Positions 48,460-64,000 of a stretch of 64,000 nt of DNA are shown one piece after another. Source of the DNA: a virus; IMG/VR virus record IMGVR_UViG_3300046660_000488, positions 408,640-472,639 of that record; one strand, given 5' to 3'. The notes under the pieces are model-generated. The model had not been told where the DNA came from and searched no databases. It saw only the letters and a list, made by a program, of their open reading frames with translations. Positions within the stretch are counted from its first letter, which is position 1. Each line of letters opens with the position of its first letter. The translations under genes were made by a program, and so were the position numbers.

Positions 48460-49357
48460 AACTCGCCATGCTATCCCCGGTTTGGTGGCCACCTCACCGA
48501 GGAATTCCTGTGGCCGTTCATCACGGCCGAATGTTCCGGCTACTGGGGGCTCTTTTTCACGAGTGGTCTAATCTCGCTACTAGACAGCCCTTTCCACCGT
48601 GGACGTTAGACCGAATGGGGACCAACCCATCCTTTTTCACGCCCGTCTTGCTTGCGGGTGGGACGCGACCCCCACTGTCTGCATTGCCAACCGGATGAAC
48701 CGGGCTCTCCGCAAATTCTGTTGCCGTTTCCGGCGAATGGCTGACACGGGCAATCCTACTTCCCACCGTCGCGGGTGTCGGATGCTCCTATGAAACCATG
48801 TCGGCCTCGAACCGATCCTCCCCCGATCAGGGGGCACACTACCCGTTGTGCTACAGCTTCCGTGTCCAAAGGGAGTCTATAGCCTCCCAGAGGTTGTTGC
48901 TCATGCGAGCGAATTTTGACCAGCGATTGACATCAGCAGCGCTACTTCAATCACGAACGAGGTGGGGGCGCCAGTCCCCACTTTCCCCAGTGTTTGCTGG
49001 GGTCTTATAAGCTGATAGATCACTCGTTCTACGCTTGGTCGTTCAGCAGTCGGCGCCGCTCAAGAGACAGCACCGTCGCCTACACTTGGATGCCCATGCG
49101 GGCAAATGGTTATGCGCGGGCGGATTTATACCACCGGCCTCCCCGTTGGAAACGGGCTCTCTCGCCCTCCGACCGTTTACTGACAGGTGCGTTTGCAACC
49201 GCGCCCTGCGTTCAACGTATCGAAGCCCAACGACGTCATGGTCACATCCGACTAACGGCGGGTAGTTTACCCCATGCCAGTTCGTTGCCTGAGCTACGCG
49301 CAACTTTGATGCCCATGCGGGCAAATTGGTACGCAGATGGGGTTTCCCGAGGAAACT

Positions 49358-49424
49358 ATACCGGTTGGATTCGAACCAACGCGCACGAGCAATGCTCGCT
49401 GCTCTCCCGCTGAGCTACGGCCCT
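49358..49424 (-). tRNA. tRNA-like element (canonical 5' half and T-arm; acceptor 3' strand mismatched)
   Basis: On the minus strand: AGGGCCG-TA-GCTC-AGCGGGA-GAGC ... GTTGG-TTCGAAT-CCAAC. The middle is CGAGC-ATT-GCTCG, a 3-nt loop rather than an anticodon loop. Confidence 0.3.
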
Positions 49425-50477
49425 TCAATCATGTGGGGATTGTAACCCCTGCACCGCCGAACGGGCACGATCATCTACGATCTCGATTTCCATCCTGTTT
49501 CGTCAACCGGTCGTCCAGAACCGATGCTCGAAGCATCAGAGACCCATCACCACTGACCACCCGCATTGCGCGGGTGACGGGGATTGAACCCGCCGGTCTC
49601 ATTCTTTTCGATCCTTGTACTTCGGACCCATAAACGACCGATTGACGGAACAGGATAGAATGTCTTGAACTTTGCATGTAACCAAATCTCGACTATCGCC
49701 GCAGTGTTGCACACCGCGTGGGACTGTCTCCCACTGTTCTCCGTCCAAAAGCTGGCAATACGCCGCCCTCGCATCAAGCAGGGCGTGGGGCATTCTCCCA
49801 CTGCAAATCGGTTAGAACCTGCCCTATTCCGCTCCCGCTGTGCGGGAGGTGGTCATCACCACTGAATTGGTTACAAGCAAAATCCAAGTTGTTGTTGATG
49901 CGAGACCGCCGACCATCTGCACAAGCCCGAAGGCGGCATGATCGTTCGGCGGTCTCGCCTCACCACGTCTCACAATGTCAAAGAACCCTTCCGAGGAAGG
50001 TGTCAGTGGGTTGCCCCGCCAACGTTTGAACCGTATACTTGAGTGCCAAGTTGAAGTCAAGCACTCATTTCGAATTTCGTGAAGGTTTCTTTCCCACCTA
50101 CAAAGTCAGCCTTTCGGCAGTTGCTTCTAAACGCCCAGCCCCGCGCTTCTTAGGGTCGAAACCCTCCACGTCACCCGAAGGTGAAAGGCTTATCCAACTG
50201 GCAGATTCAAACCGTCCCAACCCGTGTCGGACCTTGCGGGCAATTATTGAGACGTACCGGGCCTGCTGATCCAAGTGGGAACACAGGAGGCATCCGCTTT
50301 ATCCCAGACCGGATTATTCTGGTCAACGAGAAAACGACGGCCCCGACGCGAATGCACGAGTGAGGGGTGTCGAACCCCCACAGACCGCTTTCGGTTCCCG
50401 TTCTGCCTGCTGGTCGGCCCGGCATAATAGGTACTACGATCACCCGTGCATTCACGACGAGGCCGTCGCTTCGAAGA

Positions 50478-53439: not shown

Positions 53440-54081
53440 ATGCGTGATTTGATCAGCCTCATGGAAAACTACATCGCTGAATGGGGCGATGAAGACGAAG
53501 ATGATCTCGATGGCGAAGGCCATTGGGGAGACGACGATGAAGCGGAAGATGAGCACGATGATCCGACTGAATATCGGACCAACGGCTATGACTTCGGCCG
53601 TCTGGGAAATTTCTATCACCAAGTGGTGGCGGCGGCCGACAGCCAGATGGATTCCGGATCGGAGATCGAGTTTTCCGATGTCCAGAATTGGGTCGAACAT
53701 CACGCTGAACTCTTCCAGCAAGGTACGATCACCGTCTTCCGCACCATGCGGCTACAGCATGGCGTCGTCGAGGCGCTGAAGGCTGGCACGGAGCTTGGCT
53801 CGCACTGGACCTACGAATTTGACGAAAGCGCTCTCGATGCCTTCGACATCAATGGTCAGGACGGTGGAACACTCTACACCTTCGCCGCGACGATCCACAC
53901 CGGGCAGGTCGCCTTCCCGCTGACCGTCGCCTACAACTGCCTCTTCCCAGAAGAGAAAGAAATCTACCCGTTTGGCCATGCGTCGCTGACGCTCATCGGG
54001 ATTTACGAGACCGAAGACATGGAAAACCCGCAGCGGGTGAACCTGCGTCCCGATCTGGTCGGTAAGGAATTTCCAATCTGA
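53440..54081 (+). CDS. effector-island protein 1 (shared N-terminal peptide MRDLISLMEN; acidic linker; unknown domain)
   Basis: The N-terminus is MRDLISLMENY. An acidic stretch follows: DEDEDDLDGEGHWGDDDEAEDEHDD. Confidence 0.55.
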   Translation: MRDLISLMENYIAEWGDEDEDDLDGEGHWGDDDEAEDEHDDPTEYRTNGYDFGRLGNFYHQVVAAADSQMDSGSEIEFSDVQNWVEHHAELFQQGTITVFRTMRLQHGVVEALKAGTELGSHWTYEFDESALDAFDINGQDGGTLYTFAATIHTGQVAFPLTVAYNCLFPEEKEIYPFGHASLTLIGIYETEDMENPQRVNLRPDLVGKEFPI

Positions 54082-55292
54082 TGCGCGAGTTCATCCAAAT
54101 CCTTCGTGAATCCTACCTCACCGATCAGATCAAGCTGGACGACAAGCTTGTCGCCGCCGTCAAGGCGCGCTTGATGAAGGGATCGTTCTACGATTACGAC
54201 ATGCCCTCGGATGAAAGCGAGTTTTTCGACGACGTCGAGGCCGCTTATCACAAGGTGCTCTGGAACACGCTGTTCAAGGACAATGCGGTAACGATCTATC
54301 GCGCCGAGCTTCGGCCGCGCGGTCGCAACTTCGGGTCCGTTGGCATCTATTGGTCGTTCCGCCCGGAAGGGGCTCAGGCGATCTATGGGCACGACCATGG
54401 CCCGGAAATCCACGGCGGCGCGGCACTGCGCGAAATCGTGTTCATGGCGTCGGCGCCGATCACGTCGGTCGATTGGATCGCCACGTTCGCGGCCAACATC
54501 GCCATGCCGAAAGAGCTTGAAATCACGCTCAAGAACAACGCGCCGTTGACCTTGGAGCAAGCGGTCGTCGGCAACCGTAAGACCACGCTGAACATCAAGT
54601 CGTTCGCCAGCAACATCACGCAGTACGACATGATGGAGACGCCGGTCAACGAAGTCGAGATCGGTGGTGGCGTCGAAGTTTCGGACCTCGACGACGATCC
54701 GGGCCACGACTACACGAACAAGCAACGCGATCTCTTCCGCGACACCCCGGCCGGTGAGCCGGAGCTTCCGCAGGGCTACAAGCTGGTCAACCGCGTCGGT
54801 GATTTCTGGGTCGCGCAGTGCCTGAAGAACATGGACCAGCACAGTGTCATGTACGTGTTCATCAAGGATGGCGCGGAGAATGCGGCTGGCTACATCGCCG
54901 CCCATAAGTGGCACATCGACAAGCTGAACTATCGTCACGAAAACATCTACCAGCCCATGTTGGGTGGCAAGGGTCTTCGGGTCGGCGCGGTGTACGTGCG
55001 CGAGCAGTATCGTGGCTCTGACCTGTCCTTGGTGATGTACAAGTGGATGCTGGAGAACGTCTGCGATTACCTGATGGCCGACAGCTTGCAGACCATGGGC
55101 GGCGTCAAGATTTGGAAGAAACTCCAAAGCCGCAAGCCGTTCCACGTCGAGGTCTGGAATGGCAATCAGGACACGACCCGCAAGCACCGTCGCGGCAAAG
55201 ACTTCGACCGCGTCTACGACAACGGCTACATGATCCCTTGGGTCACCATCGACAGCAAGTTGGACATCGTCCACTCCGATCCGTACGAGTAA
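54081..55292 (+). CDS. effector-island protein 2 (N-terminus MREFIQILRE; C-terminal GNAT acetyltransferase)
   Basis: The C-terminus VGAVYVREQYRGSDLSLVMYKWMLENV is GNAT-like. The ATG overlaps the upstream stop (TGATG). Confidence 0.55.
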   Translation: MREFIQILRESYLTDQIKLDDKLVAAVKARLMKGSFYDYDMPSDESEFFDDVEAAYHKVLWNTLFKDNAVTIYRAELRPRGRNFGSVGIYWSFRPEGAQAIYGHDHGPEIHGGAALREIVFMASAPITSVDWIATFAANIAMPKELEITLKNNAPLTLEQAVVGNRKTTLNIKSFASNITQYDMMETPVNEVEIGGGVEVSDLDDDPGHDYTNKQRDLFRDTPAGEPELPQGYKLVNRVGDFWVAQCLKNMDQHSVMYVFIKDGAENAAGYIAAHKWHIDKLNYRHENIYQPMLGGKGLRVGAVYVREQYRGSDLSLVMYKWMLENVCDYLMADSLQTMGGVKIWKKLQSRKPFHVEVWNGNQDTTRKHRRGKDFDRVYDNGYMIPWVTIDSKLDIVHSDPYE

Positions 55293-55299
55293 TGCAACC

Positions 55300-55758
55300 A
55301 TGGACATCCGCACCGCCATCAACCTGTTTGAACACGCGCCACCGCCGCCAGTCCGCAAGCACCTGCTGGCGGCCATCGCCCATGCGGACATCTACGGTGA
55401 TGCGAAATGGAAGCTAAGCCAGTTCGATCTGAAATACGTCGGGTTCCTGTCGGTCGAAGAGATCGCTCATTATGACGACGTGCATGGATGGATGGACGTT
55501 CAACAACCAAGTGATTTGGCCAATTTCCGTGACGGCGATTTCTATTTCCCTCCGGGCGAGCGCATGCCGCCTGTCATCCTGATTACGGCACCGGATGGTG
55601 AGGCAGATAGTTCGTCGCGCTTGCACAACGGCAAGGTCGCAGGCGGCTGCATGACGCAGATTGGCGATGGTCGCGGACGCATCAACTACGCTAACGCGCA
55701 CAAAGAACGCCTTCACGTCTATCACATGATCTTCAAAGGCTGCGGAGAACAAGTTTAG
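55300..55758 (+). CDS. effector-island protein 3 (N-terminus MDIRTAINLFEH)
   Basis: A 152-aa ORF in the same operon. Confidence 0.45.
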   Translation: MDIRTAINLFEHAPPPPVRKHLLAAIAHADIYGDAKWKLSQFDLKYVGFLSVEEIAHYDDVHGWMDVQQPSDLANFRDGDFYFPPGERMPPVILITAPDGEADSSSRLHNGKVAGGCMTQIGDGRGRINYANAHKERLHVYHMIFKGCGEQV

Positions 55759-55775
55759 ATTCGAGCGCTGTAGTA

Positions 55776-55807
55776 CATTGACATGCAGACCGCAGTGTGT
55801 ATGCTCT
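55776..55807 (+). promoter_or_regulatory. sigma70-like promoter TTGACA-N16-TATGCT
   Basis: ttgacatgcagaccgcagtgtgtatgctc lies directly upstream of ATG 55813. Confidence 0.35.
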
Positions 55808-55812
55808 GCACC

Positions 55813-56742
55813 ATGGACACCAGCATCTTCACGTCGATCAACGCCTGTGAACGGATCGCCGCACGGACGATACGCAACCTTGCCATATCCAGAACCCATC
55901 CGAGCGTCAGCCTGCTCGACGTTCTGAAGCCATCGTTTCACCGCATCTACGCCGCTGGCAAGCTCACCCGCGATGAACTCGCGGCCGTGACGCGCAAGGT
56001 CCGCGACAAGCTCAATCAGAGCGAAGCGGTGGTCAAGAACACGCTGATCATCGGCAACAAGCTCAGCACCCGCGACATGAACGAGGGGCAGATCGTCTGC
56101 CTGCAAGGCGCGGGCGAACAGTGGCTGGAAATGTGGGGCGTCGGCGTGATGATGTCGCGCAAGCGCATCGTCGTGTTCTCGGCGCCAGCCGAATTCAAAG
56201 TGCACCGCCACGCGCTCACCCGCTACATGGGCGGCGAGCTTCAGTATCCCGAGCACCTTGCCGCGAAACTGCTGGACGCGGCTCAACTGTCGATCCCGAT
56301 CATGGCGGCCATCCTCGCCCACCGGACGGACGACAACCTCGCCATTCCGGTCGGCGACGGCATGCTGTTTGGCAAGATCAAGCTCTTCGACGGCTACGGC
56401 GAATTCATGACCGTCCGCACGGGCCAGAACGGCGTGGGCATGGTCCCGCGTCGGCGTTCGGGGATGCTGAAGGACAGTACGACCGAAGCCAACATGATGA
56501 CCTATGTGGACGCCGACCGGATGGTCGAGTCTCGCGTTGAACTGCATGGCCTGCTCAGCGAGTTTGCCGCCAAGCACCACCGCATCTGCGCGGCGATCTT
56601 CGAGGACTGTGTGTTCGAGACGAACCGCCCCTACCAGAAAGCCATCATCGACGAATTGCAGGAGGATGCCCGCAAGCTGGTGACCAGTCCGACGTGGTCA
56701 CAGTTCGCGGGCACGGCCAACCGGGTCACCACCAGCGCTTAG
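55813..56742 (+). CDS. hypothetical protein
   Basis: The start at MDTSIFTSIN lies within track ORF 55783..56742. Confidence 0.45.
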   Translation: MDTSIFTSINACERIAARTIRNLAISRTHPSVSLLDVLKPSFHRIYAAGKLTRDELAAVTRKVRDKLNQSEAVVKNTLIIGNKLSTRDMNEGQIVCLQGAGEQWLEMWGVGVMMSRKRIVVFSAPAEFKVHRHALTRYMGGELQYPEHLAAKLLDAAQLSIPIMAAILAHRTDDNLAIPVGDGMLFGKIKLFDGYGEFMTVRTGQNGVGMVPRRRSGMLKDSTTEANMMTYVDADRMVESRVELHGLLSEFAAKHHRICAAIFEDCVFETNRPYQKAIIDELQEDARKLVTSPTWSQFAGTANRVTTSA

Positions 56743-56911
56743 GCGCTGGCTTGACCCACGGCTTGTCGCTCTTCCACGTGTGCTTGTTCAGGGTGTCGTC
56801 TTCGGGACGCCGTCCACCGATGGCCTTGGCCAGTTTCTTGAGGTTGTCGCCTCGCGCTTCGGCGTAATAGGTGTGGGACTTGACCCACAGTTCGCAGTAG
56901 AAACCACGCAT
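56726..56911 (-). CDS. hypothetical small basic protein
   Basis: A 61-aa ORF. A CCTAAATAGAGCCATGCG box lies about 90 nt upstream on the minus strand. Confidence 0.35.
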   Translation of the reverse strand: MRGFYCELWVKSHTYYAEARGDNLKKLAKAIGGRRPEDDTLNKHTWKSDKPWVKPAPKRWW

Positions 56912-57040
56912 AGTCTTTCTCCATAGCTCCGCACCGCACTGATTTGCGGTTTCAACGGAGTCATAGGAGAGGGAGTTATGGTGCTTGACGCATGGCTCTA
57001 TTTAGGATGTGGGCGCCATTGCTGACGCCCACACGGCCCA

Positions 57041-57976
57041 TTATTTCAGAGGGTAGACGCGGACGTAGTCCACGGTCATGGCCGCCGGGTAGACGCCCTT
57101 GGCCGGGTCACCGGCCGTGATGTCGCTCACCGCGACGTTCATCAGCAGGTACATCGGCTTGTCGTAGGCGAACGGCGTGCGATAGACCTCGACGTTGTTG
57201 ATGTAGAACACCAGTTCAGTCGGGGTCCACAGGACGCCGTAGGTGTTGAAGTTGGTCGTCGCCGTGGGCACGGTCGGCTGAGGCTTGGGCGACAGGGCTG
57301 TCTCGTTGCCGGTGACGCCGACGTGCACGGTGATGTTGTCCACGTTGGTGCGGTTCAGCGGCACGCCCTTCATGACCTGAATGGTCTTGTGCGGCCCGGC
57401 ATAGTGTTCGAGCACATCGATCTCCGGCAGGCGCCCGCCATTGGTCGCGGTCTTCTCGACCGGGAGCAGCCAGAACGCCGCCCACGTGCCGTCAGCCTTC
57501 GGCATCACCGCGCGCCATTCCCAGTAGCCGTAGGTCTGGGTGAAGCTGCGCTGGGTGGTCAGCAGGCCGCTGATGAAGTTGCGCGAGCCTTGGCCGCACG
57601 TTTTCTTCACGTAATCGGTGGCGCGGATGACGTTGATGCTCAGGTTGCCGTTGCCCTGATAGAAGACGTTCTGCCCGCAGTACTCGGTGTCCACGTAGAC
57701 CTGTTGCTCGCCGGTCAGGGCGCGCGACGAGAACTGTTCGGTCATGGTCAGCGGGCGGCTGGCCTTCTCACGCTGGTTGCCGAAGTAATAGTCGGTCTTC
57801 CAGACGCCCTTCGGGTTCTTTGTGCTCAGCGTGTCCAGCGGCGTGCCGTTTGGGGCGTTGAACTCAGCAGCAAAGGTTGGGGTCGGATTGAGGATCGAGC
57901 GATCCAGTGTGGCAGACATGGCTGGCGTACAAAGCATCAGAGCAATGGCCGCCGAAATGGCTTTCAAAAATTTCAT
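57041..57976 (-). CDS. secreted glycoside hydrolase family 16 (beta-glucanase/laminarinase-like)
   Basis: The signal peptide is MKFLKAISAAIALMLCTPAMSA. The GH16 catalytic motif LPEIDVLEH (ExDxxE) is present. Confidence 0.7.
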   Translation of the reverse strand: MKFLKAISAAIALMLCTPAMSATLDRSILNPTPTFAAEFNAPNGTPLDTLSTKNPKGVWKTDYYFGNQREKASRPLTMTEQFSSRALTGEQQVYVDTEYCGQNVFYQGNGNLSINVIRATDYVKKTCGQGSRNFISGLLTTQRSFTQTYGYWEWRAVMPKADGTWAAFWLLPVEKTATNGGRLPEIDVLEHYAGPHKTIQVMKGVPLNRTNVDNITVHVGVTGNETALSPKPQPTVPTATTNFNTYGVLWTPTELVFYINNVEVYRTPFAYDKPMYLLMNVAVSDITAGDPAKGVYPAAMTVDYVRVYPLK

Positions 57977-57977
57977 G

Positions 57978-58062
57978 ATATATTGGCTCCAAAAATTCAA
58001 GCCAATAGTAGTACAGTATTTACTATACTGTCAACATGAACGTTTACAGTTGTCAACGGTCG
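57978..58062 (-). promoter_or_regulatory. AT-rich promoter region for the GH16 gene (TTGACA-N18-TACTAT plus an embedded GTAAATAC box)
   Basis: On the minus strand: TTGACAgtatagtaaatactgtacTACTAT...GGAGCCaatatatcATG. The composition is strongly AT-shifted compared with the genome. Confidence 0.4.
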
Positions 58063-58254
58063 CTATCCATTGATGACGCGGACGTACACGGCTCGAAGAC
58101 GTCCGCTGGAGGTCATCTTTACGCGGAAAGTCACCACCTGTCCTTCGGAGTAGCACTTGCCTTTGCCGATGAGAAAAATGGGTCCGCCACCATCGGACGG
58201 GGTGATCATCCCGAAACCGCGAGAGTCTTTGAACCACTTGATTTGCCCGAACAT
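58063..58254 (-). CDS. cold-shock protein (CspA family)
   Basis: MFGQIKWFKDSRGFGMITPSDGGGPIF carries the RNP1-like KGFGFI motif. Confidence 0.65.
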   Translation of the reverse strand: MFGQIKWFKDSRGFGMITPSDGGGPIFLIGKGKCYSEGQVVTFRVKMTSSGRLRAVYVRVING

Positions 58255-58316
58255 GCGCGGGCCGGGGAGCGTAGGGGTCATCCCATCAGCCTACCAAATC
58301 TGGTAAACGAAACCCA

Positions 58317-58324
58317 CTAAATAC
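58317..58324 (+). promoter_or_regulatory. late-promoter-like box CTAAATAC
   Basis: The box ends 4 nt before ATG 58329. Confidence 0.45.
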
Positions 58325-58328
58325 GGAC

Positions 58329-58694
58329 ATGCGTTGGAACGAGATCATCACCGAAAGTGAAGTGCCGTGGGTCGATAATGCGACCAACACGTTGAGCGTC
58401 GGATCGACGACGCTGGAATTTGACCTGTATCGCAACGACGTGCAGATCAAAGACCTCGACACGCCGGTCGCCGACCGTGGTCAGGGCCAAGCACGCAAGG
58501 CCATGCTGATGCTGGCCGCCAAAGCCGATCAGGTCGGTGCCAAGATTTCGCTGCTGTCCTACCCGCAGGATGAAGTCACAAAGCAGGGACAGTTGAACAA
58601 ATTCTATCGCTCGCTTGGCTATAAGGCCATCCGCAAGTACCCGGACGGCGACGTGCTGATGGTTCGTCAGCCGAAAACGCCAAAAGGCGCTTGA
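58329..58694 (+). CDS. effector-island protein 4 (N-terminus MRWNEIITES; small GNAT acetyltransferase)
   Basis: VADRGQGQARKAMLMLAAKADQVGAKISLL...KFYRSLGYK. Confidence 0.55.
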   Translation: MRWNEIITESEVPWVDNATNTLSVGSTTLEFDLYRNDVQIKDLDTPVADRGQGQARKAMLMLAAKADQVGAKISLLSYPQDEVTKQGQLNKFYRSLGYKAIRKYPDGDVLMVRQPKTPKGA

Positions 58695-59002
58695 CACTCA
58701 GGCCGCGTATGGTAGTGTGCGTTTCTCACTGAAGTAGGTGAGCGGACTGCTCCACCTCGGTGGAGAACATGCACCATTAACCGCCGCCTCGTCGCCGGAA
58801 GAATGATCGGTAGTTCCTTTGGGCTATGCCTCACGGCAACGATCTTTGGAAGGTTTGGACAAGACGAGGCTGTAGTGACGCTGCGAAAGCAGAGAGTAGC
58901 CGCACCAAACCCGGCTAGGCGGGACGTCATATCGTGACATCGGAAGGCTGTCTGATCCAGAGGTCAGACGGCGCGGTCCACAAGCTGAACACGACAGCAG
59001 GA

Positions 59003-59031
59003 AGGGCGGGGAGCAATCTCCGCCTTTTTTC
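59003..59031 (+). terminator. rho-independent terminator ending a roughly 330-nt non-coding stretch
   Basis: GGCGG-ggagcaatct-CCGCC followed by TTTTTTCTATTT. Confidence 0.45.
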
Positions 59032-59464
59032 TATTTGGCTGTCTTCTGTAGAGTGCGCGCATGAGCCAGACCGCCACACCTCCGTCTGAATACCTGCCCA
59101 GAACCGCCGTGGAAGCGCTCGTGCGCGCCAATGCGAATGGACACACGCCGGAGCGCGCTCAAGGCGCCGAGCACTGGCGGTGCAGCACCTGCGGCTATGT
59201 CGCCTCGCAAGTTCGCTGGTGGCCGATCACTTGCGAGGCCACGTCCACGTCCTCCGCGTGAAATAATGGAAGAACGGTCGGTCGAAGGCGATGTTCACCA
59301 AGCCTTTGCCCAGAATTTTCAACAGCAGCCACCGCGTGTCGAGTGACATGCGGCCGGTAAATGGTTTTCCGAAGGCGATGCAACGAACGCTGTGAAAGAT
59401 CACGCGCCATTCGTTCTTACTGATAGCTCTCATCAGCAACCTGTGCTGTATCAAGAGCAAACCG

Positions 59465-59746
59465 TCAAGAGTCGATAGCCCACCAAATCGCTTCGTCGGA
59501 CTCGCGATCCTCGACCGTGGGGTCATCGTGGAAGCCGATGATGTTCTTCTGCTTCATGCGCGTCGGGAAATAGACGCAGCCGCACGACGAGCAGATGTTC
59601 GCATCGGTGATCACCGGGATGATGTCGGGTGCGACTTCCGCAATTTCGGAAAGCTGAGAGTGGTGGATTTTGGCCTGACGGTTCAACGTCGGGCGCTCGC
59701 AGTTACGATTAGGGCAGGGCTTGTTCTGCTTCGAGCGGTGGGCCAT
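59465..59746 (-). CDS. hypothetical Cys-rich protein
   Basis: A 93-aa ORF with CPNRNCE...CSSCGC. Confidence 0.35.
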   Translation of the reverse strand: MAHRSKQNKPCPNRNCERPTLNRQAKIHHSQLSEIAEVAPDIIPVITDANICSSCGCVYFPTRMKQKNIIGFHDDPTVEDRESDEAIWWAIDS

Positions 59747-59761
59747 GATCGTATTTATGGA

Positions 59762-59769
59762 CTAAATAT
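59762..59769 (+). promoter_or_regulatory. late-promoter-like box CTAAATAT
   Basis: The box ends 4 nt before ATG 59774. Confidence 0.45.
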
Positions 59770-59773
59770 TGCC

Positions 59774-60640
59774 ATGCGCGAGTACATCAACATCGTAGAA
59801 TCCAACACCTATCCCATCAAGGGTGGAACGGTTCAGGTCGTGACCCGAGAACTGCGGGGCAATCGCTACAGCTTCACGGCCACGGTCGATGGACAGCGAG
59901 CCGCCATCGGTGAATTCCAAGCGCAAGACTCGATGAATGGCGACAAGGGATCGGTGGAAGAGATCACTGTCGCTGCGGCGTTCCGGCGCCGTGGGATCGC
60001 CTCGGCGATCTACAGCCATTTCGAGAAGATGGGCTTCACCGTTGTTCCATCCGATGATGTCCGGCCGGATGGCCAAGCGTTTTGGAAGAGCCGTCCGCTG
60101 ACGGAGTTGTCGCGGCCGGTCTTCATAGATGAAGTCGATCCGATCTTGAAGAAAGCCGGGTGGACCCGCGTCGGCTCTGGCTACTATGCCTCCGTCTACG
60201 CCAAGGAAGGCGTGAACTACGTCCTCAAGCTGTTCAGCAATCACGACAAAGGCTACATCGATTTCCTGAAGCTTGTTCAGCAGCATCCGAACAAGCACTT
60301 CCCCACGCTCCGTGGCCTGCCGCGTCGGATCACGTCGGGATACACGGCGGTCCGCATGGAGAAACTTCTGCCAGCCGGTTATGGTGACGACGTGCCAAGC
60401 CTTGGCGTCTACCTGCTCTGCCGCGACACCGGTCCCTATGCCAAGAACCAGTATCAGGTGAAGGCCTACGAGCACGTGGTGGAATATCTCCAGAGCCAGC
60501 CGGAACTGAAACGCGCCCTCGACTTGATCATCGACAATCTGCTTCCCAAATACAACGAAGACCTGCACAGTGAGAATTTCATGAAGCGCGCTGACGGAAC
60601 GCTGGTCATCATCGACCCGGTCGGTTTCGTTCGGAAATAG
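59774..60640 (+). CDS. effector-island protein 5 (N-terminus MREYINIVES; GNAT acetyltransferase fused to a protein-kinase-like/aminoglycoside-phosphotransferase-like domain)
   Basis: The GNAT part is EEITVAAAFRRRGIASAIYSHFEKMGF. The kinase-like part has a G-loop WTRVGSGYYASVYAKEG, a Lys in VLKLF, and a catalytic-loop-like LHSENFMKRADGTLVIIDPVGF. Confidence 0.55.
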   Translation: MREYINIVESNTYPIKGGTVQVVTRELRGNRYSFTATVDGQRAAIGEFQAQDSMNGDKGSVEEITVAAAFRRRGIASAIYSHFEKMGFTVVPSDDVRPDGQAFWKSRPLTELSRPVFIDEVDPILKKAGWTRVGSGYYASVYAKEGVNYVLKLFSNHDKGYIDFLKLVQQHPNKHFPTLRGLPRRITSGYTAVRMEKLLPAGYGDDVPSLGVYLLCRDTGPYAKNQYQVKAYEHVVEYLQSQPELKRALDLIIDNLLPKYNEDLHSENFMKRADGTLVIIDPVGFVRK

Positions 60641-60679
60641 GCAGGTTGACCGGTCGAGGCTATGTGGTAAACCAACGCC

Positions 60680-60940
60680 ATGCAGCTTTCGTTTGATGAA
60701 TGGTGCGGCTCTGTCCGCGACAGGTTCGAGAAGACGTTCGGGTACACCGCCCCGAGGTCGCCATCGCTTGTCGAACTGGACAGCCGGGTGCAGGAACGGA
60801 TCATGCGCTGTGGCGTCGAGGCCCATCGTTTCGGCCTTGAGCATTACGACGAAATGGCTGTGCTCGCGCACCACACGCTGATCCTCGAAGACGTCAAGGC
60901 CGGAATGTCGAACAGCCATATGCGGTACGTGGCGCCTTAG
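60680..60940 (+). CDS. hypothetical small protein
   Basis: An 86-aa ORF. Confidence 0.35.
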   Translation: MQLSFDEWCGSVRDRFEKTFGYTAPRSPSLVELDSRVQERIMRCGVEAHRFGLEHYDEMAVLAHHTLILEDVKAGMSNSHMRYVAP

Positions 60941-61422
60941 ATTGTCGCCGGGATATTTGTGGCGATGGTCTTGTCCGTCTCGATGTCATAGAACCGGGCG
61001 ATTACAACCCGTGAACCGGGGCGAAGCGTGATCTCTTGATCGCTATCCCACCATCCAATGGCGCGCGCCATCGTTTCCGGCCAGTTGATAGCCGCCTGCG
61101 GAACGGTAACTTGCATCACGTAGTCGCCGTAATGGACGTCGGCATTTGTCTCGGGTGCAATGGCCCAGTGGATGCCGAGTTTGTTGCGATTGACGCTCGT
61201 CGTCGGCAGTCGCCGATAGAGGGTGACGTTCCCTTCGGACCACGGTTTCAATGCGGCTGACAATTCTTGTGTCCGGCCGACCATCCACTCGTCGAAGTCG
61301 TCAAACGCAAGTTTGTAGTTGTGGTAGAGACCACGAAGATCACCGGGGCCATAGCGGAAAGCATTGAGCACGGTATCCGGCGTAACGTCGGCCAAACTCT
61401 CGTTGATCTCATTGTATCGCAT
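60937..61422 (-). CDS. effector-island protein 6 on the minus strand (N-terminus MRYNEINESL)
   Basis: The start at 61422 lies immediately after GCTAAATATGGG on the minus strand, which matches the same box arrangement. Confidence 0.5.
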   Translation of the reverse strand: MRYNEINESLADVTPDTVLNAFRYGPGDLRGLYHNYKLAFDDFDEWMVGRTQELSAALKPWSEGNVTLYRRLPTTSVNRNKLGIHWAIAPETNADVHYGDYVMQVTVPQAAINWPETMARAIGWWDSDQEITLRPGSRVVIARFYDIETDKTIATNIPATI

Positions 61423-61459
61423 CCCATATTTAGCTGTTTGAGCGTGATGTTCCTGAAGC

Positions 61460-61467
61460 CTAAATAC
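61460..61467 (+). promoter_or_regulatory. late-promoter-like box CTAAATAC
   Basis: The box ends 4 nt before ATG 61472. The divergent minus-strand box lies at 61426..61433. Confidence 0.45.
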
Positions 61468-61471
61468 TGCC

Positions 61472-61888
61472 ATGCGCGAATTCATCAATCTCCTAGTCGA
61501 AGCCCAAATGTACCTCGGTGACAAGGGTACGACTTACTGGAACCATGCTGGCAAGTACGAAGCCGAAATGGGCAAGCTTTGGAAGGAACTGGTTCCCGGT
61601 TCCGGCCCGGCCGAAACACTCGCTGGCGAAGTGCTGCGCTGTGTCTCCAAAATCTACTACCGCCATTTCAATGACGGCGATTCGTTCACCGTGGACAGCT
61701 TCGCGTTCCTGAAGAAGAACATCGGCCATTTCACGACGTACGACGAAATGGTTGACCGTGCGGTCGAATTCGCGATGGACCCTGAGCACCAAGCCATGGC
61801 CAACAACTTCGACAGCGTGCGCGAACTCAAAATCTACGAAGGTCCCGAGTCAGGTTACGACGACGACGAGGATGAAGACGAGTACTGA
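61472..61888 (+). CDS. effector-island protein 7 (N-terminus MREFINLLVE; acidic C-terminal tail)
   Basis: A 138-aa ORF with C-terminus DDDEDEDEY. Confidence 0.5.
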   Translation: MREFINLLVEAQMYLGDKGTTYWNHAGKYEAEMGKLWKELVPGSGPAETLAGEVLRCVSKIYYRHFNDGDSFTVDSFAFLKKNIGHFTTYDEMVDRAVEFAMDPEHQAMANNFDSVRELKIYEGPESGYDDDEDEDEY

Positions 61889-61891
61889 TCC

Positions 61892-62551
61892 GTGCGCGAA
61901 TTCATCACCCTCATCGAGAGCGGCACAGCCGCTGAAGCATTTGACGACTGGTTCGGCAACAGCCGTGTGGTTGATGGTGACGGTCGGCCGCTGATCGTCT
62001 TCCACGGCACGAACCAACCGTTCGAGCAGTTCTCCAAGGCGCGCGGCGGCATGGCCACTGGCCCGCAGGCTGGTGCCATCCACGGGTTCTTCTTCACGAG
62101 CACCGAAGCGGAAGCTTGGGATTATGCCAAGCACGCCGGGAGCAAGGTCGTATCCGGTATCGACCATTTCGAGCAGGAGACGGAACGTCTGCGTTTGGAG
62201 CAGGAACGTCTTGAAAAGCTTGCCCAGCGCACGAACAAGAAATCGGACTGGGATGCGTTCTATGCCGCCTACCAGAATTGGGAAGATTTCGAGATAAATG
62301 CCACGCGCGAGGAAGACGATGTCGGCAACCGCGTCGTCAAGGCCTACCTGTCGCTCCAGAACCCTCTGGAGGTCAATTTCAACGGCACGATGCAGTCTGA
62401 GGCTGGCGTCATCCAAGACGTGGTCGAGAAGGCCGTACGCGACGGCAATGACGGCGTGATCATGCGGAACATCTACGACGGCCCGTATGGCGGCCACACG
62501 AGCGACCACTTCGTCGCGTTCTCACCCGATCAGATTCATCAGGTTGGCTGA
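61892..62551 (+). CDS. effector-island protein 8 (N-terminus V/MREFITLIES; H-Y-E class ADP-ribosyltransferase-like)
   Basis: The GTG start overlaps the upstream stop. RPLIVFHGTNQPFEQFS...GFFFTSTEAEAW matches the [FY]HGT motif of diphtheria-toxin/PARP-like ARTs. Confidence 0.5.
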   Translation: MREFITLIESGTAAEAFDDWFGNSRVVDGDGRPLIVFHGTNQPFEQFSKARGGMATGPQAGAIHGFFFTSTEAEAWDYAKHAGSKVVSGIDHFEQETERLRLEQERLEKLAQRTNKKSDWDAFYAAYQNWEDFEINATREEDDVGNRVVKAYLSLQNPLEVNFNGTMQSEAGVIQDVVEKAVRDGNDGVIMRNIYDGPYGGHTSDHFVAFSPDQIHQVG

Positions 62552-63420
62552 TGCGCTATCGCGAACTCATCGAGGCGGCAAGCGACGAGCCACCGTTCAA
62601 GAAACCCAAGGGCGTTCGCACACCGGCCTTCACCAAGGACGGGCGCCGCATCATCCTGTCGAAAGGTTACATGAGCGTCGATGCCATGATCGACGGCAAG
62701 CCTGCCGGGAACATGCAGATCAGCAGCCCGAGCGACGGCGGACTAGGCTACAGCAATCGGTTCTACGTCAACCGGGTGTGGGTCGAGGAAGAATTCCGTG
62801 GACAAGGCGTGGCCACGGCCATGTACGATTTCGCCTTCCGAGCCGGTTTCAGGCCACTGGGAATGAGCCGCACGCTCACCGACCAAGGTAAGGCGTTCTG
62901 GGACGACCACGTTCGCAAGAAGGCGTCCAAAGGTCTCGGCCGCGACTATCACAGCGATTATCCGAACCGGTTCCACTGGCGACCGTTGCCGATGTCTGAA
63001 GACATCATCAGCGAAGGCAAGGTTCATCAACTGGATACGGGCTACGGTGGAAACGTGCGAATGACGCTCATCTACCAGAATCCGTCTCCCGTTCAAGCAC
63101 AGACAATGGCCAAGAACCAGATGGACCGGTACAACGGCCTTCTGTACCTTCGTGGGATCATGTCCAACGGATCGACGGTCTATGTCGCCGATGGCTGGGC
63201 CTGCACCCATGACGATCTGATGCAGAATTTCTTCCCCGGCAAGAGTGAGAGCGACGAGCGCTTCACGACGTTCGAGATCGCCAACTATGCGGGCGGCAGT
63301 TACGGCGCCGACAGGACCACGTTCCCAGCGAAGGTCGGCGTGGTCAAAGCGGGACATTTCGACGTCGAAACGAACCCGCAGATCGCGAAGATCATCGCCG
63401 GATGCCGGGCGGTCAACTAG
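62551..63420 (+). CDS. effector-island protein 9 (N-terminus MRYRELIEAA; N-terminal GNAT acetyltransferase)
   Basis: VWVEEEFRGQGVATAMYDFAFRAGFRPLG. Confidence 0.5.
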   Translation: MRYRELIEAASDEPPFKKPKGVRTPAFTKDGRRIILSKGYMSVDAMIDGKPAGNMQISSPSDGGLGYSNRFYVNRVWVEEEFRGQGVATAMYDFAFRAGFRPLGMSRTLTDQGKAFWDDHVRKKASKGLGRDYHSDYPNRFHWRPLPMSEDIISEGKVHQLDTGYGGNVRMTLIYQNPSPVQAQTMAKNQMDRYNGLLYLRGIMSNGSTVYVADGWACTHDDLMQNFFPGKSESDERFTTFEIANYAGGSYGADRTTFPAKVGVVKAGHFDVETNPQIAKIIAGCRAVN

Positions 63421-63866
63421 GTCCGGCCGATGGTCAGATGGAAGTGCCGCTTTTCGGGCGGAAGGCCGTAGCGCTCTCGCACGGCCGCAAGTTCGTCGGA
63501 CTCCACGTTAAGCCACCAATGCGCGCCATTCGTATAGATGTCGTGCGTGTACTTGATCGCAATTTCCTCGCCATCGTCCGCACCCCAGAGCGCCGGTGTT
63601 GAAAGCGTCTCGCCGCGAATGACCGACACGTGCGCGCCCCACTTCGAGCGGTGGTGCAGGCCGATCCCAAACCGCACGCGGATCATGTCGGCATAGTACC
63701 GGGCGATCTCGTCATCGACCTGAAGCAGCAACCAGTCGTCGGCGTAGCGCAGCGTTCCCACGACGTCATGTACATACGCGGCATTCTCCCGGTCACGGTA
63801 GGTCGTGATCAGTCGTCCGAATTTGCTCCCAAGGATATGGGTTCCGTGGATGGTGTTTACGAACAT
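63417..63866 (-). CDS. 2H phosphoesterase superfamily protein (LigT / cyclic phosphodiesterase-like)
   Basis: Two H-x-[ST]-x motifs are present: GAHVSVIRG and RHFHLTIGR. Confidence 0.55.
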   Translation of the reverse strand: MFVNTIHGTHILGSKFGRLITTYRDRENAAYVHDVVGTLRYADDWLLLQVDDEIARYYADMIRVRFGIGLHHRSKWGAHVSVIRGETLSTPALWGADDGEEIAIKYTHDIYTNGAHWWLNVESDELAAVRERYGLPPEKRHFHLTIGRT

Positions 63867-63886
63867 GGTACACCCTTAATACCATG

Positions 63887-63894
63887 CTAAATAT
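63887..63894 (+). promoter_or_regulatory. late-promoter-like box CTAAATAT
   Basis: The box ends 4 nt before ATG 63899. Confidence 0.45.
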
Positions 63895-63898
63895 TGCC

Positions 63899-64000
63899 AT
63901 GCGAGATTTGATCAACATCATGGAGGATGCTCAGCAAGAGCAGTTGACTCCGCCGCCCGTTCTCTACCACGGAACGACGCCCTACAACGCGGCTCTGATC
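63899..64000 (+). CDS. effector-island protein 10, partial (N-terminus MRDLINIMED; ART or Tpt1/KptA-like PPVLYHGT motif)
   Basis: MRDLINIMEDAQQEQLTPPPVLYHGTTPYNAALI. YHGT near the N-terminus resembles diphtheria toxin (SSYHGTKPGYVDSI). PP..LYHGT also resembles KptA. The gene is truncated by the window. Confidence 0.45.
   Translation, partial: MRDLINIMEDAQQEQLTPPPVLYHGTTPYNAALI

What the first reader, a model, noticed from the sequence alone, without database searches (positions are those of the whole stretch)
59774..60640. GNAT-kinase-like fusion effector
A single 288-aa ORF combines an N-terminal GNAT motif with a C-terminal region showing a glycine-rich loop (GSGYYASVY), a conserved Lys (VLKLF) and an H/D-containing catalytic-loop-like segment (ENFMKRADGTLVIIDPVGF). 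This resembles aminoglycoside phosphotransferase and LPS kinase folds. Bifunctional AAC/APH enzymes are the classic precedent. Here the fusion carries the capsid-targeting-like peptide.
Basis: inference. Interest (0 to 1): 0.55.

Follow-up and report, generated by a model that had tools for sequence, protein, structure and literature searches.

The report
Phage acetyltransferase–T7-type protein kinase fusion
A giant T4-related phage encodes one 288-residue protein that joins a small acetyltransferase to a T7-type protein kinase, probably made late and possibly carried in the capsid to modify host proteins at the next infection.

Summary

- **N-terminal module (residues ~10-102):** a truncated GNAT fold with an intact acetyl-CoA loop, R71-x-x-G74-x-A76.
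- **C-terminal module (residues 111-288):** a minimal protein-kinase-like domain.
- **Kinase family:** it belongs to the phage T7 gp0.7 (T7K) / Kinase-PolyVal lineage, not to APH or LPS kinases.
  - PHROG 15752 matches at E=6e-11, and hhalign against a gp0.7 gives 95.7%.
  - The catalytic set is complete: Gly-loop, K152, D263-x4-N268 and the T7K hallmark D281-P282-V283.
- **Origin of the fusion:** both modules occur elsewhere as stand-alone proteins, and the kinase is also found fused to ART, Acb1, ParB-like or GNAT modules. This is therefore a small polyvalent effector.
- **Context:** the window comes from a huge T4-superfamily phage related to Atu_ph07 and Phosso. The gene lies in an array of at least 10 genes that share a T4 capsid-targeting-like leader, M-R-D/E-L/F-I-x-L-x-E.
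- **Expression signal:** a T4-type late-promoter motif, CTAAATA (16 copies versus 0.9 expected), ends 5 nt before the ATG. This implies a leaderless late mRNA.

Capsid delivery and prohead-protease cleavage are inferred, not shown. I rate it a new variant of a known kind, of moderate interest.

The parts
59762..59768 (+). CTAAATA, a T4-type late-promoter-like -10 element. It ends 5 nt before the ATG, and no Shine-Dalgarno sequence lies between them. This predicts a leaderless mRNA starting at the A of ATG.
   Evidence: The window holds 16 copies against 0.86 expected. The same motif lies 24-56 nt upstream of the tail sheath, TerL and fibre-like genes. Nolan 2006 (PMC1524935) places the Aeh1 late promoter CTAAATA at -12..-6.
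59774..59800 (+). N-terminal leader MREYINIVE (aa 1-9). It resembles the T4 capsid-targeting sequence and ends in I-V-E.
   Evidence: At least 10 neighbouring genes and genes of related phages share it, with consensus M-R-D/E-L/F-I-N/D-L-I/V-E-S/A. The T4 CTS is MKTYQEFIAE. The first ten residues average pLDDT 61-64 in both models.
59801..60079 (+). Truncated GNAT acetyltransferase-fold module (aa ~10-102). Motif A, R71-x-x-G74-x-A76, is at 59984-60001.
60080..60103 (+). Disordered inter-domain linker (aa 103-110). It leads into L109-T110-E111, an [IL]-x-E site at the junction.
   Evidence: AF2 pLDDT is below 50 for aa 103-109. The [IL]xE sites are listed.
60104..60637 (+). T7 gp0.7 (T7K)-type minimal Ser/Thr(/Tyr) protein kinase domain (aa 111-288).
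- ELSRP N-terminal motif.
- Gly-loop at 60173-60199.
- K152 at 60227-60229.
- Catalytic loop D263-x4-N268 at 60560-60577.
- DPV (the DFG equivalent) at 60614-60622.
   Evidence: PHROG 15752 E=6.2e-11. tblastn matches 'protein kinase 0.7' of T7-like Klebsiella and Salmonella phages. hhalign against the Klebsiella phage 5OI88 gp0.7 gives 95.7% probability, E=1e-8. Precomputed Pfam PF27024 Phage_T7_kinase is a faint hit. Kinase-PolyVal is hit by 23 of 118 family members. AF2 pLDDT is above 95.
53440..55292 (+). Two leader-bearing genes of the same array, MRDLISLME (213 aa) and MREFIQILRE (403 aa). Their functions are unknown.
58329..58694 (+). Leader-bearing 121-aa mini-GNAT-like paralogue (MRWNEIITE). 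CTAAATA lies 5 nt upstream of its ATG.
60937..61422 (-). Leader-bearing 161-aa gene (MRYNEINE). CTAAATA lies 4 nt upstream. Its function is unknown.
61472..63420 (+). An apparent operon of three leader-bearing genes:
- a 138-aa gene of unknown function (MREFINLLVE);
- a 219-aa ART-PolyVal ADP-ribosyltransferase (MREFITLIE);
- a 289-aa protein with a GNAT plus an unknown C-terminal domain (MRYRELIE).
   Evidence: Pfam ART-PolyVal E=6.9e-18 and Acetyltransf_1 E=1.8e-6.

Best explanation
**Shown.**
- The ORF encodes a two-module, protein-modifying effector of a huge phage of the T4 superfamily.
- Module 1 (aa ~10-102) is a stripped-down GNAT with an intact acetyl-CoA pyrophosphate-binding loop.
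- Module 2 (aa 111-288) is a minimal kinase of the T7 gp0.7 (T7K) / Kinase-PolyVal lineage. It has a complete catalytic set: Gly-loop, K152, D263-x4-N268 and the T7K-specific DPV motif.
- The two modules are joined by a disordered linker.
- Each module exists elsewhere as a stand-alone leader-bearing protein.
- The gene lies in an array of genes that share a T4 CTS-like N-terminal decapeptide. The array includes an ART-PolyVal ADP-ribosyltransferase and two further GNATs.
- A T4-type late-promoter motif abuts the ATG.

**Inferred.**
- The protein arose by fusion of modules from a shuffling pool of effector cassettes.
- The gene is transcribed late, as a leaderless mRNA.
- The leader targets the precursor to the prohead core, as the T4 CTS does for Alt and IPI-III.
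- A gp21-type prohead protease removes the leader after Glu9 (I-V-E|S). It may also cut at L-T-E111|L in the linker.
- The enzyme is ejected with the DNA at the next infection.
- There it acetylates and phosphorylates host proteins for take-over or counter-defence, before any phage gene is expressed. Candidate targets are the transcription and translation machinery, nucleic-acid-binding proteins and defence proteins.

My confidence in the domain identities is about 0.9. For host-protein targeting it is about 0.6. For capsid delivery it is about 0.4-0.45.
For: **Gene and fusion are real.**

**Kinase identity.**
- PHROG 15752 E=6.2e-11.
- T7-like gp0.7 tblastn hits.
- hhalign 95.7%, E=1e-8.
- PF27024 Phage_T7_kinase, faint.
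- Kinase-PolyVal in 23 of 118 members.
- AF2 model with pLDDT 88.
- The D263/N268/D281 spacing is 5 and 13 residues. From memory, this matches PKA D166/N171/D184.
- DPV is the T7K hallmark (PMC13645617).

**GNAT identity.**

**Modularity.**
- Stand-alone kinases: P0002-4 and P0007-9.
- Stand-alone GNATs: P0158-160.
- Other fusions of the kinase: ART-PolyVal (P0028, P0132), a PARP-like domain (P0069), Acb1 (P0012), a ParB_N-like domain (P0033, below Pfam's cut-off), DUF6934 (P0109) and GNAT (P0039, 30% identity over the full length).
- The polyvalent-protein logic is described in PMC5512222.

**Phage type.**
- The window encodes sheath, tube, TerL, gp32-like and UvsX-like proteins.
- TerL is closest to Phosso and Atu_ph07.
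- Group 2 jumbo phages carry a gp21-type prohead protease (PMC7824862).

**Late promoter.** CTAAATA occurs 16 times against 0.86 expected, and sits upstream of structural genes.

**Leader.**
- Window and relatives.
- The exact peptide MRDLI[ND]LIE is found in 14 viral stretches with GC of 33-57%, often directly after NTAAATA.
- T4 CTS and Alt precedent.
Against: - There are no virion proteomics or transcript data. Packaging, cleavage and timing rest on analogy with T4.
- The prohead protease and the major capsid protein are not in the window.
- E111 and P115 of the junction motif 'ELSRP' are conserved in about 90% or more of the kinase family. This includes members that start 'MRxxELSRP'. The junction Glu may therefore be a structural part of the kinase rather than a cleavage site.
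- AF2 puts residues 5-15 into the first beta-strand of the GNAT. Cutting after Glu9 would trim that strand.
- The GNAT lacks the alpha1-alpha2 and alpha4/beta6 elements, and only about 75-80 residues align to solved GNATs. It may not be catalytic.
- T7K itself is an early, non-packaged enzyme.
- Cultured phages with related kinases (Milchi, RHph_I1_18) have neither the leader nor the abutting promoter.
- The residue after DPV is Gly284, not the Ser216-equivalent autoinhibitory site said to be conserved in T7K homologues. Regulation must therefore differ.
Confidence: 0.55

Rival explanations
1. The enzyme is the same, but it is not packaged. It is made late and acts inside the cell that produces it, for example by phosphorylating or acetylating host or phage proteins late in infection. 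The shared N-terminal decapeptide then serves another purpose. Candidates are efficient translation of leaderless mRNAs, a folding or oligomerisation element, or a short homology patch for cassette recombination.
For: - The leader always sits directly at a predicted leaderless 5' end, so a translational role is conceivable.
- Leaders share 15-17 nt of near-identical DNA, which could act as a recombination handle.
- T7K acts in the producing cell.
- AF2 integrates residues 5-15 into the GNAT sheet.
Against: - The Arg2 codon varies (CGT, CGC, CGA) while the peptide is kept. The peptide is also conserved across phages with GC of 33-57%. Selection therefore acts on the protein, not the RNA.
- Leader genes inside operons that lack an abutting promoter (54081, 61892, 62551) still carry the leader.
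- The leader matches the length, the hydrophobic positions 4 and 7, and the terminal [IL]-x-E of the T4 CTS.
- The co-clustered ART mirrors T4 Alt, which is packaged.
Confidence: 0.3
2. Only the kinase is catalytic. The mini-GNAT is a degenerate, non-enzymatic module that acts as a targeting, regulatory or autoinhibitory domain for the kinase.
For: - The GNAT is about 95 aa, against about 150 aa for solved GNATs.
- Alpha1-alpha2 and the C-terminal alpha4/beta6 elements are missing.
- The Pfam score is barely above the cut-off.
Against: - Motif A (R-x-x-G-x-A) is invariant across the stand-alone and fused homologues.
- Stand-alone 109-130-aa versions exist. This suggests the module functions on its own, possibly as a dimer.
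- Three paralogous copies are kept in this one locus.
Confidence: 0.25
3. It is an AAC/APH-like bifunctional small-molecule enzyme that modifies an aminoglycoside or another antibiotic.
For: - The domain order, acetyltransferase then phosphotransferase, is the same as in AAC(6')-Ie/APH(2'')-Ia.
- Foldseek lists APH(2'')-Ia at about E=3e-4, and AAC(3)/AAC(6') among the best GNAT matches.
Against: - There is no sequence-level link to APH or AAC. PDB sequence and profile searches find nothing. Only 2 of 118 family members touch Pfam APH, at E>=0.047.
- The sequence-level family is the T7K protein kinase.
- The domain ends 5 residues after DPV, so no APH substrate-binding subdomain exists.
- The context is a lytic-type giant phage effector array that includes an ART.
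Confidence: 0.04

Closest known systems
Phage T7 gp0.7 protein kinase (T7K; Pfam PF27024 Phage_T7_kinase; PHROG 15752)
   Same: - The kinase core is homologous (PHROG E=6e-11; hhalign 95.7%).
- It has the same catalytic set: Gly-loop, Lys, D-x4-N and the DPV motif in place of DFG.
- It has the same truncated C-lobe.
- It is phage-restricted. Divergent jumbophage homologues that lack the shut-off domain have already been reported (PMC13645617).
   Different: - It has no C-terminal DNA-binding shut-off domain.
- It has only 5 residues after DPV.
- Gly284 replaces the Ser216-type autoinhibitory site.
- It is fused to a GNAT at its N-terminus.
- It is preceded by a late-type promoter and a CTS-like leader, rather than being an early gene.
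- It is only about 26-30% identical to gp0.7 proteins.
Polyvalent proteins and the Kinase-PolyVal domain (PF18762; Iyer et al. 2017, PMC5512222)
   Same: - It is a multi-effector polypeptide built from the same repertoire: a RimI-like GNAT, a kinase lacking the C-terminal subdomain, and an ART-PolyVal next door.
- It shows cassette-like shuffling between solo and fused forms.
- Delivery with the DNA is predicted in both cases.
   Different: - It has only two domains (288 aa), against up to 15 in polyvalent proteins.
- No MuF or portal-linked module was seen.
- The window protein matches Kinase-PolyVal only at E=0.11.
- The proposed targeting device here is a T4-type decapeptide leader, which that paper does not describe.
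T4 Alt and internal proteins IPI-III with their capsid-targeting sequence (CTS, MKTYQEFIAE)
   Same: - The phage belongs to the T4 superfamily.
- The leader is a ~10-aa N-terminal peptide starting Met plus a basic residue, with hydrophobic or aromatic residues at positions 4 and 7, ending in [IL]-x-E.
- Unrelated proteins carry the same leader.
- One of them is an ADP-ribosyltransferase, as Alt is.
- A late-promoter motif is present.
   Different: - The leader sequence is only analogous (M-R-D/E-L/F-I-x-L-x-E).
- The cargo here is enzymes (kinase, GNAT) that are not known as T4 internal proteins.
- Processing and packaging are untested.
- The promoter abuts the ATG, implying a leaderless mRNA. 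I do not know of this for the T4 ip or alt genes (from memory).
AAC(6')-Ie/APH(2'')-Ia bifunctional aminoglycoside-modifying enzyme
   Same: It has a GNAT followed by a PKL-fold phosphotransferase in one chain. There is fold-level similarity for both halves.
   Different: - There is no sequence relationship.
- It lacks the APH substrate-binding subdomain.
- Its family and genomic context point to protein substrates.

Membership tests
T7 gp0.7 / T7K protein-kinase family (PF27024, PHROG 15752) | Significant sequence match to the family profile over the kinase core | tested here: met
   PHROG 15752 E=6.2e-11, aa 119-286 against profile positions 58-240 of 260. hhalign against a Klebsiella phage gp0.7 gives 95.7% probability, E=1e-8. 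tblastn E=7e-5 to 6e-4. The precomputed PF27024 hit is only 'faint'.
T7 gp0.7 / T7K protein-kinase family (PF27024, PHROG 15752) | Catalytic constellation with a DPV motif in place of DFG | tested here: met
   G134/G136, K152, D263, N268 and D281-P282-V283 are present and 95-97% conserved in 118 relatives. DPV is defined in PMC13645617.
T7 gp0.7 / T7K protein-kinase family (PF27024, PHROG 15752) | Protein-kinase-like fold | tested here: met
T7 gp0.7 / T7K protein-kinase family (PF27024, PHROG 15752) | C-terminal DNA-binding shut-off (SO) domain | tested here: not met
   The protein ends 5 residues after DPV. The SO domain is also reported lost in jumbophage homologues.
T7 gp0.7 / T7K protein-kinase family (PF27024, PHROG 15752) | Ser216-equivalent autophosphorylation site right after DPV | tested here: not met
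   The sequence is DPV-G284. The paper states that Ser216 is conserved in all its variants.
T7 gp0.7 / T7K protein-kinase family (PF27024, PHROG 15752) | Early expression and promiscuous Ser/Thr/Tyr kinase activity | not testable with these tools
   The only evidence is a promoter-like motif of the late type. There is no expression or activity data.
GNAT acetyltransferase superfamily | Profile match and motif A (Q/R-x-x-G-x-G/A) | tested here: met
   Acetyltransf_1 scores 21.8 bits against a cut-off of 20.7. R71, G74 and A76 are invariant in alignment A5.
GNAT acetyltransferase superfamily | GNAT fold | tested here: met
GNAT acetyltransferase superfamily | Complete fold (alpha1-alpha2 arm, alpha4, beta6-7) and catalytic competence | tested here: not met
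   The models show only five strands, one helix and a short strand. About 75-80 residues align, to targets of 134-176 residues. Activity is not testable here.
Polyvalent proteins (Iyer 2017) | At least two conflict-related effector domains in one polypeptide, drawn from the polyvalent repertoire, with solo and fused versions | tested here: met
   The protein is a GNAT plus a C-lobe-truncated kinase, with ART-PolyVal two genes downstream. Relatives are fused to ART, Acb1, ParB_N-like and GNAT modules.
Polyvalent proteins (Iyer 2017) | Linkage to a MuF/portal module or demonstrated co-delivery with DNA | not tested
   No MuF appeared among the genes scanned, but not all window genes were scanned.
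T4-type CTS-bearing internal/ejected proteins | A ~10-aa N-terminal leader with hydrophobic positions 4 and 7, ending in an [IL]-x-E cleavage motif | tested here: met
   MREYINIVE|S has Y4, I7 and I7-V8-E9. The neighbour MREFINLLVE|A matches the T4 length exactly. The T4 determinants are described in PMC9026906.
T4-type CTS-bearing internal/ejected proteins | A gp21-type prohead protease in the same phage | not testable with these tools
   It is not in the 64-kb window. It is inferred from TerL relatives and from the phyletic pattern of group 2 jumbo phages.
T4-type CTS-bearing internal/ejected proteins | Presence in virions with a processed N-terminus | not testable with these tools
   This needs virion mass spectrometry.
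AAC(6')-Ie/APH(2'')-Ia-type bifunctional resistance enzymes | Sequence homology to the APH and AAC families, and the APH substrate-binding subdomain | tested here: not met
   There are no PDB sequence or profile hits. Pfam APH is hit by 2 of 118 members at E>=0.047. The chain ends right after DPV.

The most novel reading that the evidence does not exclude
Huge T4-superfamily phages may keep arrays of cassette-like effector genes: a T7K-type kinase, mini-GNATs, an ART and domains of unknown function.
- Each gene carries a conserved T4-CTS-like decapeptide.
- Each is transcribed as a leaderless late mRNA from a promoter that abuts the ATG.
- The products would be loaded into the capsid, trimmed by the prohead protease, and injected. 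Fused modules might also be separated at relic [IL]-x-E junctions.

On this reading, a T7K-type kinase arrives pre-made with the DNA instead of being expressed early. T7K is the hyper-promiscuous, defence-disarming enzyme described in 2026.
Probability: 0.35. Interest if true: 0.7.

Novelty: new variant of a known kind. Interest (0 to 1): 0.5.

Why it matters
T7K was recently shown to disarm many bacterial defence systems by pervasive phosphorylation. The function of its divergent jumbophage homologues was left open (PMC13645617). This locus bears on that question in three ways.

- **The family is much larger than reported.** A profile of the domain finds 3,872 cluster representatives at 50% identity. 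That paper found 46 clusters at 80% identity.
- **The kinase is a shuffled cassette.** It occurs fused to GNAT, ART, Acb1 and other modules.
- **One phage clade couples it to a T4 CTS-like leader and a late promoter.** If the enzyme is indeed delivered in the capsid, counter-defence by phosphorylation and acetylation would begin at the moment of DNA entry.

There are two further consequences. The short conserved leader would be a practical tag for predicting ejected effectors in metagenomic giant phages. The promoter-abutting-ATG arrangement suggests a class of leaderless late phage mRNAs that is worth testing.

Tried and rejected
**Searches that found nothing or little.**
- Megablast of window 58-64 kb against cultured phages gave no match.
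- PDB sequence searches found nothing useful, with either the single protein or the 118-sequence profile. The only result was a Dot/Icm effector at E of about 0.4.
- NCBIfam gave no hit for the target or its neighbours.
With 4 sequences it returned only 4 loci.
- tblastn with the neighbouring ART found no informative cultured relatives.

**Checks that narrowed the picture.**
- I looked for the leader-plus-promoter arrangement in cultured phages that carry related kinases: Pseudomonas phage Milchi (three tandem kinases) and Rhizobium phage RHph_I1_18. It is absent there, and those genes have ordinary Shine-Dalgarno sites. No tractable cultured model was found.
- I looked for a locus where the stand-alone GNAT (P0158) sits directly upstream of a stand-alone kinase, which would document the fusion event. 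It does not.

**Readings rejected.**
- The upstream GTG start at 59528 is rejected because GC3 there is 0.44.
- The antisense 385-aa ORF is rejected.
- The APH/LPS-kinase reading is rejected, for the reasons given under rival explanations.
- I considered whether 'ELSRP' at the junction is a relic leader. It is instead the conserved N-terminal motif of the kinase domain itself.
- The sigma-70 promoter and intrinsic terminator scan around the gene gave nothing above background.
Full report
**1. Observation**

ORF 59774-60640 (+) is real. It starts at ATG and encodes 288 aa.
- GC by codon position is 0.60/0.38/0.74, like other genes of the window.
- The in-frame extension up to GTG 59528 has GC3 of 0.44, and the overlapping antisense 385-aa ORF has GC3 of 0.60. 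Both behave as non-coding.
- The identical protein is recorded from a 578,292-bp JGI contig and from an independent 67,411-bp Logan assembly. The fusion is therefore not an assembly error.
- All quoted motifs are present: GSGYYASVY (aa 134-142), VLKLF (aa 150-154), ENFMKRADGTLVIIDPVGF (aa 267-285) and the GNAT loop RRRGIA (aa 71-76).

**2. The C-terminal domain is a T7 gp0.7-type protein kinase**

Sequence evidence:
- PHROG 15752 ('protein kinase; inhibitor of host transcription') matches aa 119-286 at E=6.2e-11.
- tblastn finds 'protein kinase 0.7' genes of T7-like Klebsiella and Salmonella phages at 26-28% identity.
- A profile of the domain aligns to the gp0.7 of Klebsiella phage 5OI88 with 95.7% probability, E=1e-8. 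The alignment runs from the Gly-loop to the DPV motif.
- The collection's precomputed Pfam label is PF27024 Phage_T7_kinase, marked faint.
- In the local Pfam copy, 23 of 118 relatives hit Kinase-PolyVal. Two hit APH weakly and one hits Pkinase.

Structure evidence:
- AlphaFold2 with a 118-sequence alignment gives mean pLDDT 88.4. The value is above 95 across aa 120-288 and below 50 for the linker aa 103-109.
- Foldseek against the PDB returns Rad53, MELK, CaMKI, ASK1, GCN2, PKR and PknB. APH(2'')-Ia appears at similar E-values.

Catalytic residues:
- G134/G136, K152, D263, N268, D281 and P282 are 95-97% conserved in the family.
- The D/N/D spacing of 5 and 13 residues equals that of PKA D166/N171/D184. 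This comparison is from memory.
- D281-P282-V283 is the DPV motif that the 2026 T7K study identifies as the family hallmark replacing DFG (PMC13645617).

Differences from T7K:
- There is no shut-off domain.
- Only five residues follow DPV.
- Gly284 stands where T7K has the inhibitory autophosphorylation site Ser216.

**3. The N-terminal domain is a truncated GNAT**

- Pfam Acetyltransf_1 is just above its gathering score, at 21.8 against 20.7 bits.
- Close stand-alone homologues of 109-130 aa exist. One carries a precomputed PF00583 hit, and one is named a RimI-like acetylase by its source.
- R71, G74 and A76 (motif A) are invariant in the alignment. That alignment also includes two paralogous mini-GNAT modules of the same locus, at 58329-58694 and in the N-terminal part of 62551-63420.
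- A separate model of aa 1-111 (pLDDT 77) gives only GNATs among the top 50 PDB matches: AAC(3)-I, AAC(6')-Iy, RimI, PAT and Hpa2. Only about 75-80 residues align.
- The alpha1-alpha2 arm and alpha4/beta6 are missing. Catalytic competence is therefore uncertain.

**4. The modules are shuffled**

- The kinase-domain profile finds 3,872 cluster representatives at E<=1e-3 and 1,574 at E<=1e-10. Most are 170-200-aa stand-alone proteins beginning M-[RK]-x-x-E-[LI]-[ST]-R-P.
- Longer members fuse the kinase to several other modules:
  - ART-PolyVal (P0028, P0132);
  - a PARP-like ART (P0069);
  - the anti-CBASS Acb1 (P0012);
  - a ParB_N-like domain (P0033, below Pfam's cut-off);
  - DUF6934 (P0109);
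  - a GNAT (P0039, which aligns with the target over the full length at 30% identity).
- P0005 carries the same GNAT (about 66-68% identical) between two other modules, and keeps '...IVEA...' at the junction.
- The target junction reads 'FWKSR-PLT-ELSRP'. It looks like the end of a solo GNAT ('FWRDRRG*') joined to the start of a solo kinase ('MR..ELSRP').
- This matches the polyvalent-protein concept. Polyvalent proteins include a kinase clade that lacks the C-terminal subdomain, and RimI-like GNATs that neighbour ARTs (PMC5512222).

**5. Genomic context**

- The window encodes a tail sheath, tail tube proteins, a head-closure protein, TerL, gp32-like SSB, a UvsX-like recombinase, seryl-tRNA synthetase and a permuted alpha-type tmRNA.
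- TerL is closest to Sinorhizobium phage Phosso (469 kb, 57% identity) and Agrobacterium phage Atu_ph07 (490 kb, 60%). PA5oct-type phages and CBB come next.
- This places the phage in group 2.2 of jumbo phages. Group 2 phages carry T4 gp20 and gp21 orthologues (PMC7824862).
- The target lies in a 10-kb stretch, continuing beyond the window in L001, where at least 10 genes begin with the leader M-R-D/E-L/F-I-x-L-x-E. Otherwise these genes are unrelated to each other.
- Members of the array:
  - 53440, 54081, 60937-61422(-) and 61472, all of unknown function;
  - 58329, a mini-GNAT;
  - 59774, the target;
  - 61892, an ART-PolyVal (E=6.9e-18);
  - 62551, a GNAT plus an unknown domain;
  - L001 14126 and L001 14652.

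**6. Leader and promoter**

The leader:
- Related huge-phage contigs (L004 from a 499,572-bp contig; L005) show the same arrays, with up to ten leader genes in 20 kb.
- Among 23 leaders collected, 14 fit M-[RK]-x-x-[ILD]-x-[ILF]-x-E. The consensus is M-R-D-L-I-N/D-L-I/V-E-S-A.
- The T4 capsid-targeting sequence is MKTYQEFIAE. In T4, residues 4 and 7 govern targeting and residues 8 and 10 govern processing. Alt, an ADP-ribosyltransferase, and IPI-III are packaged in this way.
- The leaders here have an aromatic or hydrophobic residue at positions 4 and 7 and end in [IL]-x-E.

The promoter motif:
- CTAAATA occurs 16 times in the window against 0.86 expected. TAAATA occurs 26 times against 3.5 expected.
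- The motif lies 24-65 nt upstream of the sheath, TerL and fibre-like genes, which have Shine-Dalgarno sites.
- It lies exactly 4-5 nt upstream of the ATG of the target and of five other leader genes, which have no Shine-Dalgarno site.
- In T4-like phage Aeh1 the late promoter is CTAAATA at -12..-6 (PMC1524935). Transcription would therefore start at the A of the ATG, giving a leaderless late mRNA.
- The exact peptide MRDLI[ND]LIE occurs in 14 IMG/VR stretches with GC of 33-57%. It is often immediately preceded by [ACG]TAAATA plus 4-5 nt.
- Arg2 uses different codons in different genes. Conservation therefore acts at the protein level.

**7. Mechanism**

Shown:
- The protein is a GNAT plus T7K-type kinase fusion with intact cofactor and catalytic motifs.
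- It sits in an array of leader-tagged effector genes of a huge T4-superfamily phage.
- A late-type promoter motif abuts its start codon.

Inferred:
- It is synthesised late.
- The leader targets it to the prohead core.
- A gp21-type protease removes the leader after Glu9. The protease may also cut at L109-T110-E111 in the disordered linker.
- It is ejected with the DNA.
- It then acetylates and phosphorylates host proteins for take-over or counter-defence. The precedents are T7K (PMC13645617), T4 Alt, and the phiKMV-like GNAT Rac (cited in PMC7824862).

Caveats:
- E111 and P115 are nearly invariant parts of the kinase N-terminus. This argues against cleavage at E111.
- AF2 places residues 5-15 in a GNAT beta-strand.
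- The GNAT may be inactive.
- No expression or virion data exist.
- Related kinases of cultured phages (Milchi, RHph_I1_18) lack both the leader and the abutting promoter.

**8. Verdict**

- Its interpretation is partly supported. The GNAT-PKL fusion effector is right, and the CTS-like peptide is plausible. The AAC/APH and LPS-kinase analogy is not supported.
- The object is a new variant of known kinds: the T7K family, polyvalent effectors, and T4 CTS cargo.
- Interest is moderate. It would be higher if capsid delivery of a T7K-type kinase and leaderless late mRNAs are confirmed.

Noticed in passing
window, 16 sites: 315, 6537, 13538, 24421, 26573, 38639, 39118, 42419, 43797, 53428, 56999, 58317, 59762, 61427, 61460, 63887: CTAAATA is about 19-fold over-represented (16 copies against 0.86 expected).
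- It behaves as a T4/Aeh1-type late promoter upstream of the sheath, TerL and fibre-like genes.
- For six leader-bearing genes, a ferritin-like gene (ATG 43791, - strand) and, with ATAAATA, the divergent gene 59465-59746(-), the motif ends 4-5 nt before the ATG with no Shine-Dalgarno site.
- This predicts a class of leaderless late mRNAs.
   Followed up: partly
window 53440-64000, and L001 14126-15380 (beyond the window end): An array of at least 10 otherwise unrelated genes all begin with a T4 CTS-like decapeptide (M-R-D/E-L/F-I-x-L-x-E). The same arrays occur in related huge-phage contigs (L004, L005). The exact peptide MRDLI[ND]LIE occurs in 14 IMG/VR stretches with GC of 33-57%.
   Followed up: partly
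window 61892-62551 (+): A leader-bearing 219-aa ART-PolyVal ADP-ribosyltransferase (Pfam E=6.9e-18). It is a functional analogue of the packaged T4 Alt. In other phages the same ART is fused to the kinase domain (P0132, P0028).
   Followed up: partly
window 62551-63420 (+) and 58329-58694 (+): Two further mini-GNAT paralogues. The 289-aa protein has a C-terminal ~170-aa domain with no family match. The 121-aa protein is a solo mini-GNAT-like module.
   Followed up: partly
window 63417-63866 (-): A 149-aa 2H-phosphoesterase-like protein (Pfam 2H-SAK E=1.6e-5, just under its cut-off; PHROG 12204 E=2.4e-25). It lies next to the effector array and may be a cyclic-nucleotide or RNA-end processing counter-defence enzyme.
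   Followed up: no
window 7763-8099 (-): A phage-encoded permuted, alphaproteobacterial-type tmRNA (Rfam RF01849 at 114 bits; RF04321 at 121.7 bits). It is consistent with an alphaproteobacterial host.
   Followed up: no
window 8550-9827 (-): A full-length seryl-tRNA synthetase (TIGR00414 serS, E=7.5e-136) encoded by the phage.
   Followed up: no
window 56999-57005 (-) and downstream: CTAAATA plus 5 nt plus ATG is followed by only a 5-codon ORF (MRQAP*). This may be the relic of a decayed leader-bearing cassette.
   Followed up: no
window 44900-50400: This stretch has few convincing ORFs. It holds two weak Rfam tRNA hits (48393-48459 and 49361-49420, - strand) and one odd ARAGORN call (48791-48860). 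Its nature is unresolved.
   Followed up: no
L004 7693-8301 and 9986-10519; L027 (Pseudomonas phage Milchi) 3838-6232; L002 (Rhizobium phage RHph_I1_18) 41-1866: T7K-type kinase genes often occur as two or three paralogues per phage, in tandem in Milchi and RHph_I1_18. The 499-kb relative has two, both with a leader or an ELSRP-type start.
   Followed up: partly
L013, L016 and L017 (IMG/VR contigs of 43-213 kb): Proteins of up to 395 aa start 'MRDLINLIENLSKPDIESVLKKAGY...'. This is the leader followed by a kinase-like N-terminal motif, but with a divergent continuation. No TAAATA lies upstream.
   Followed up: no
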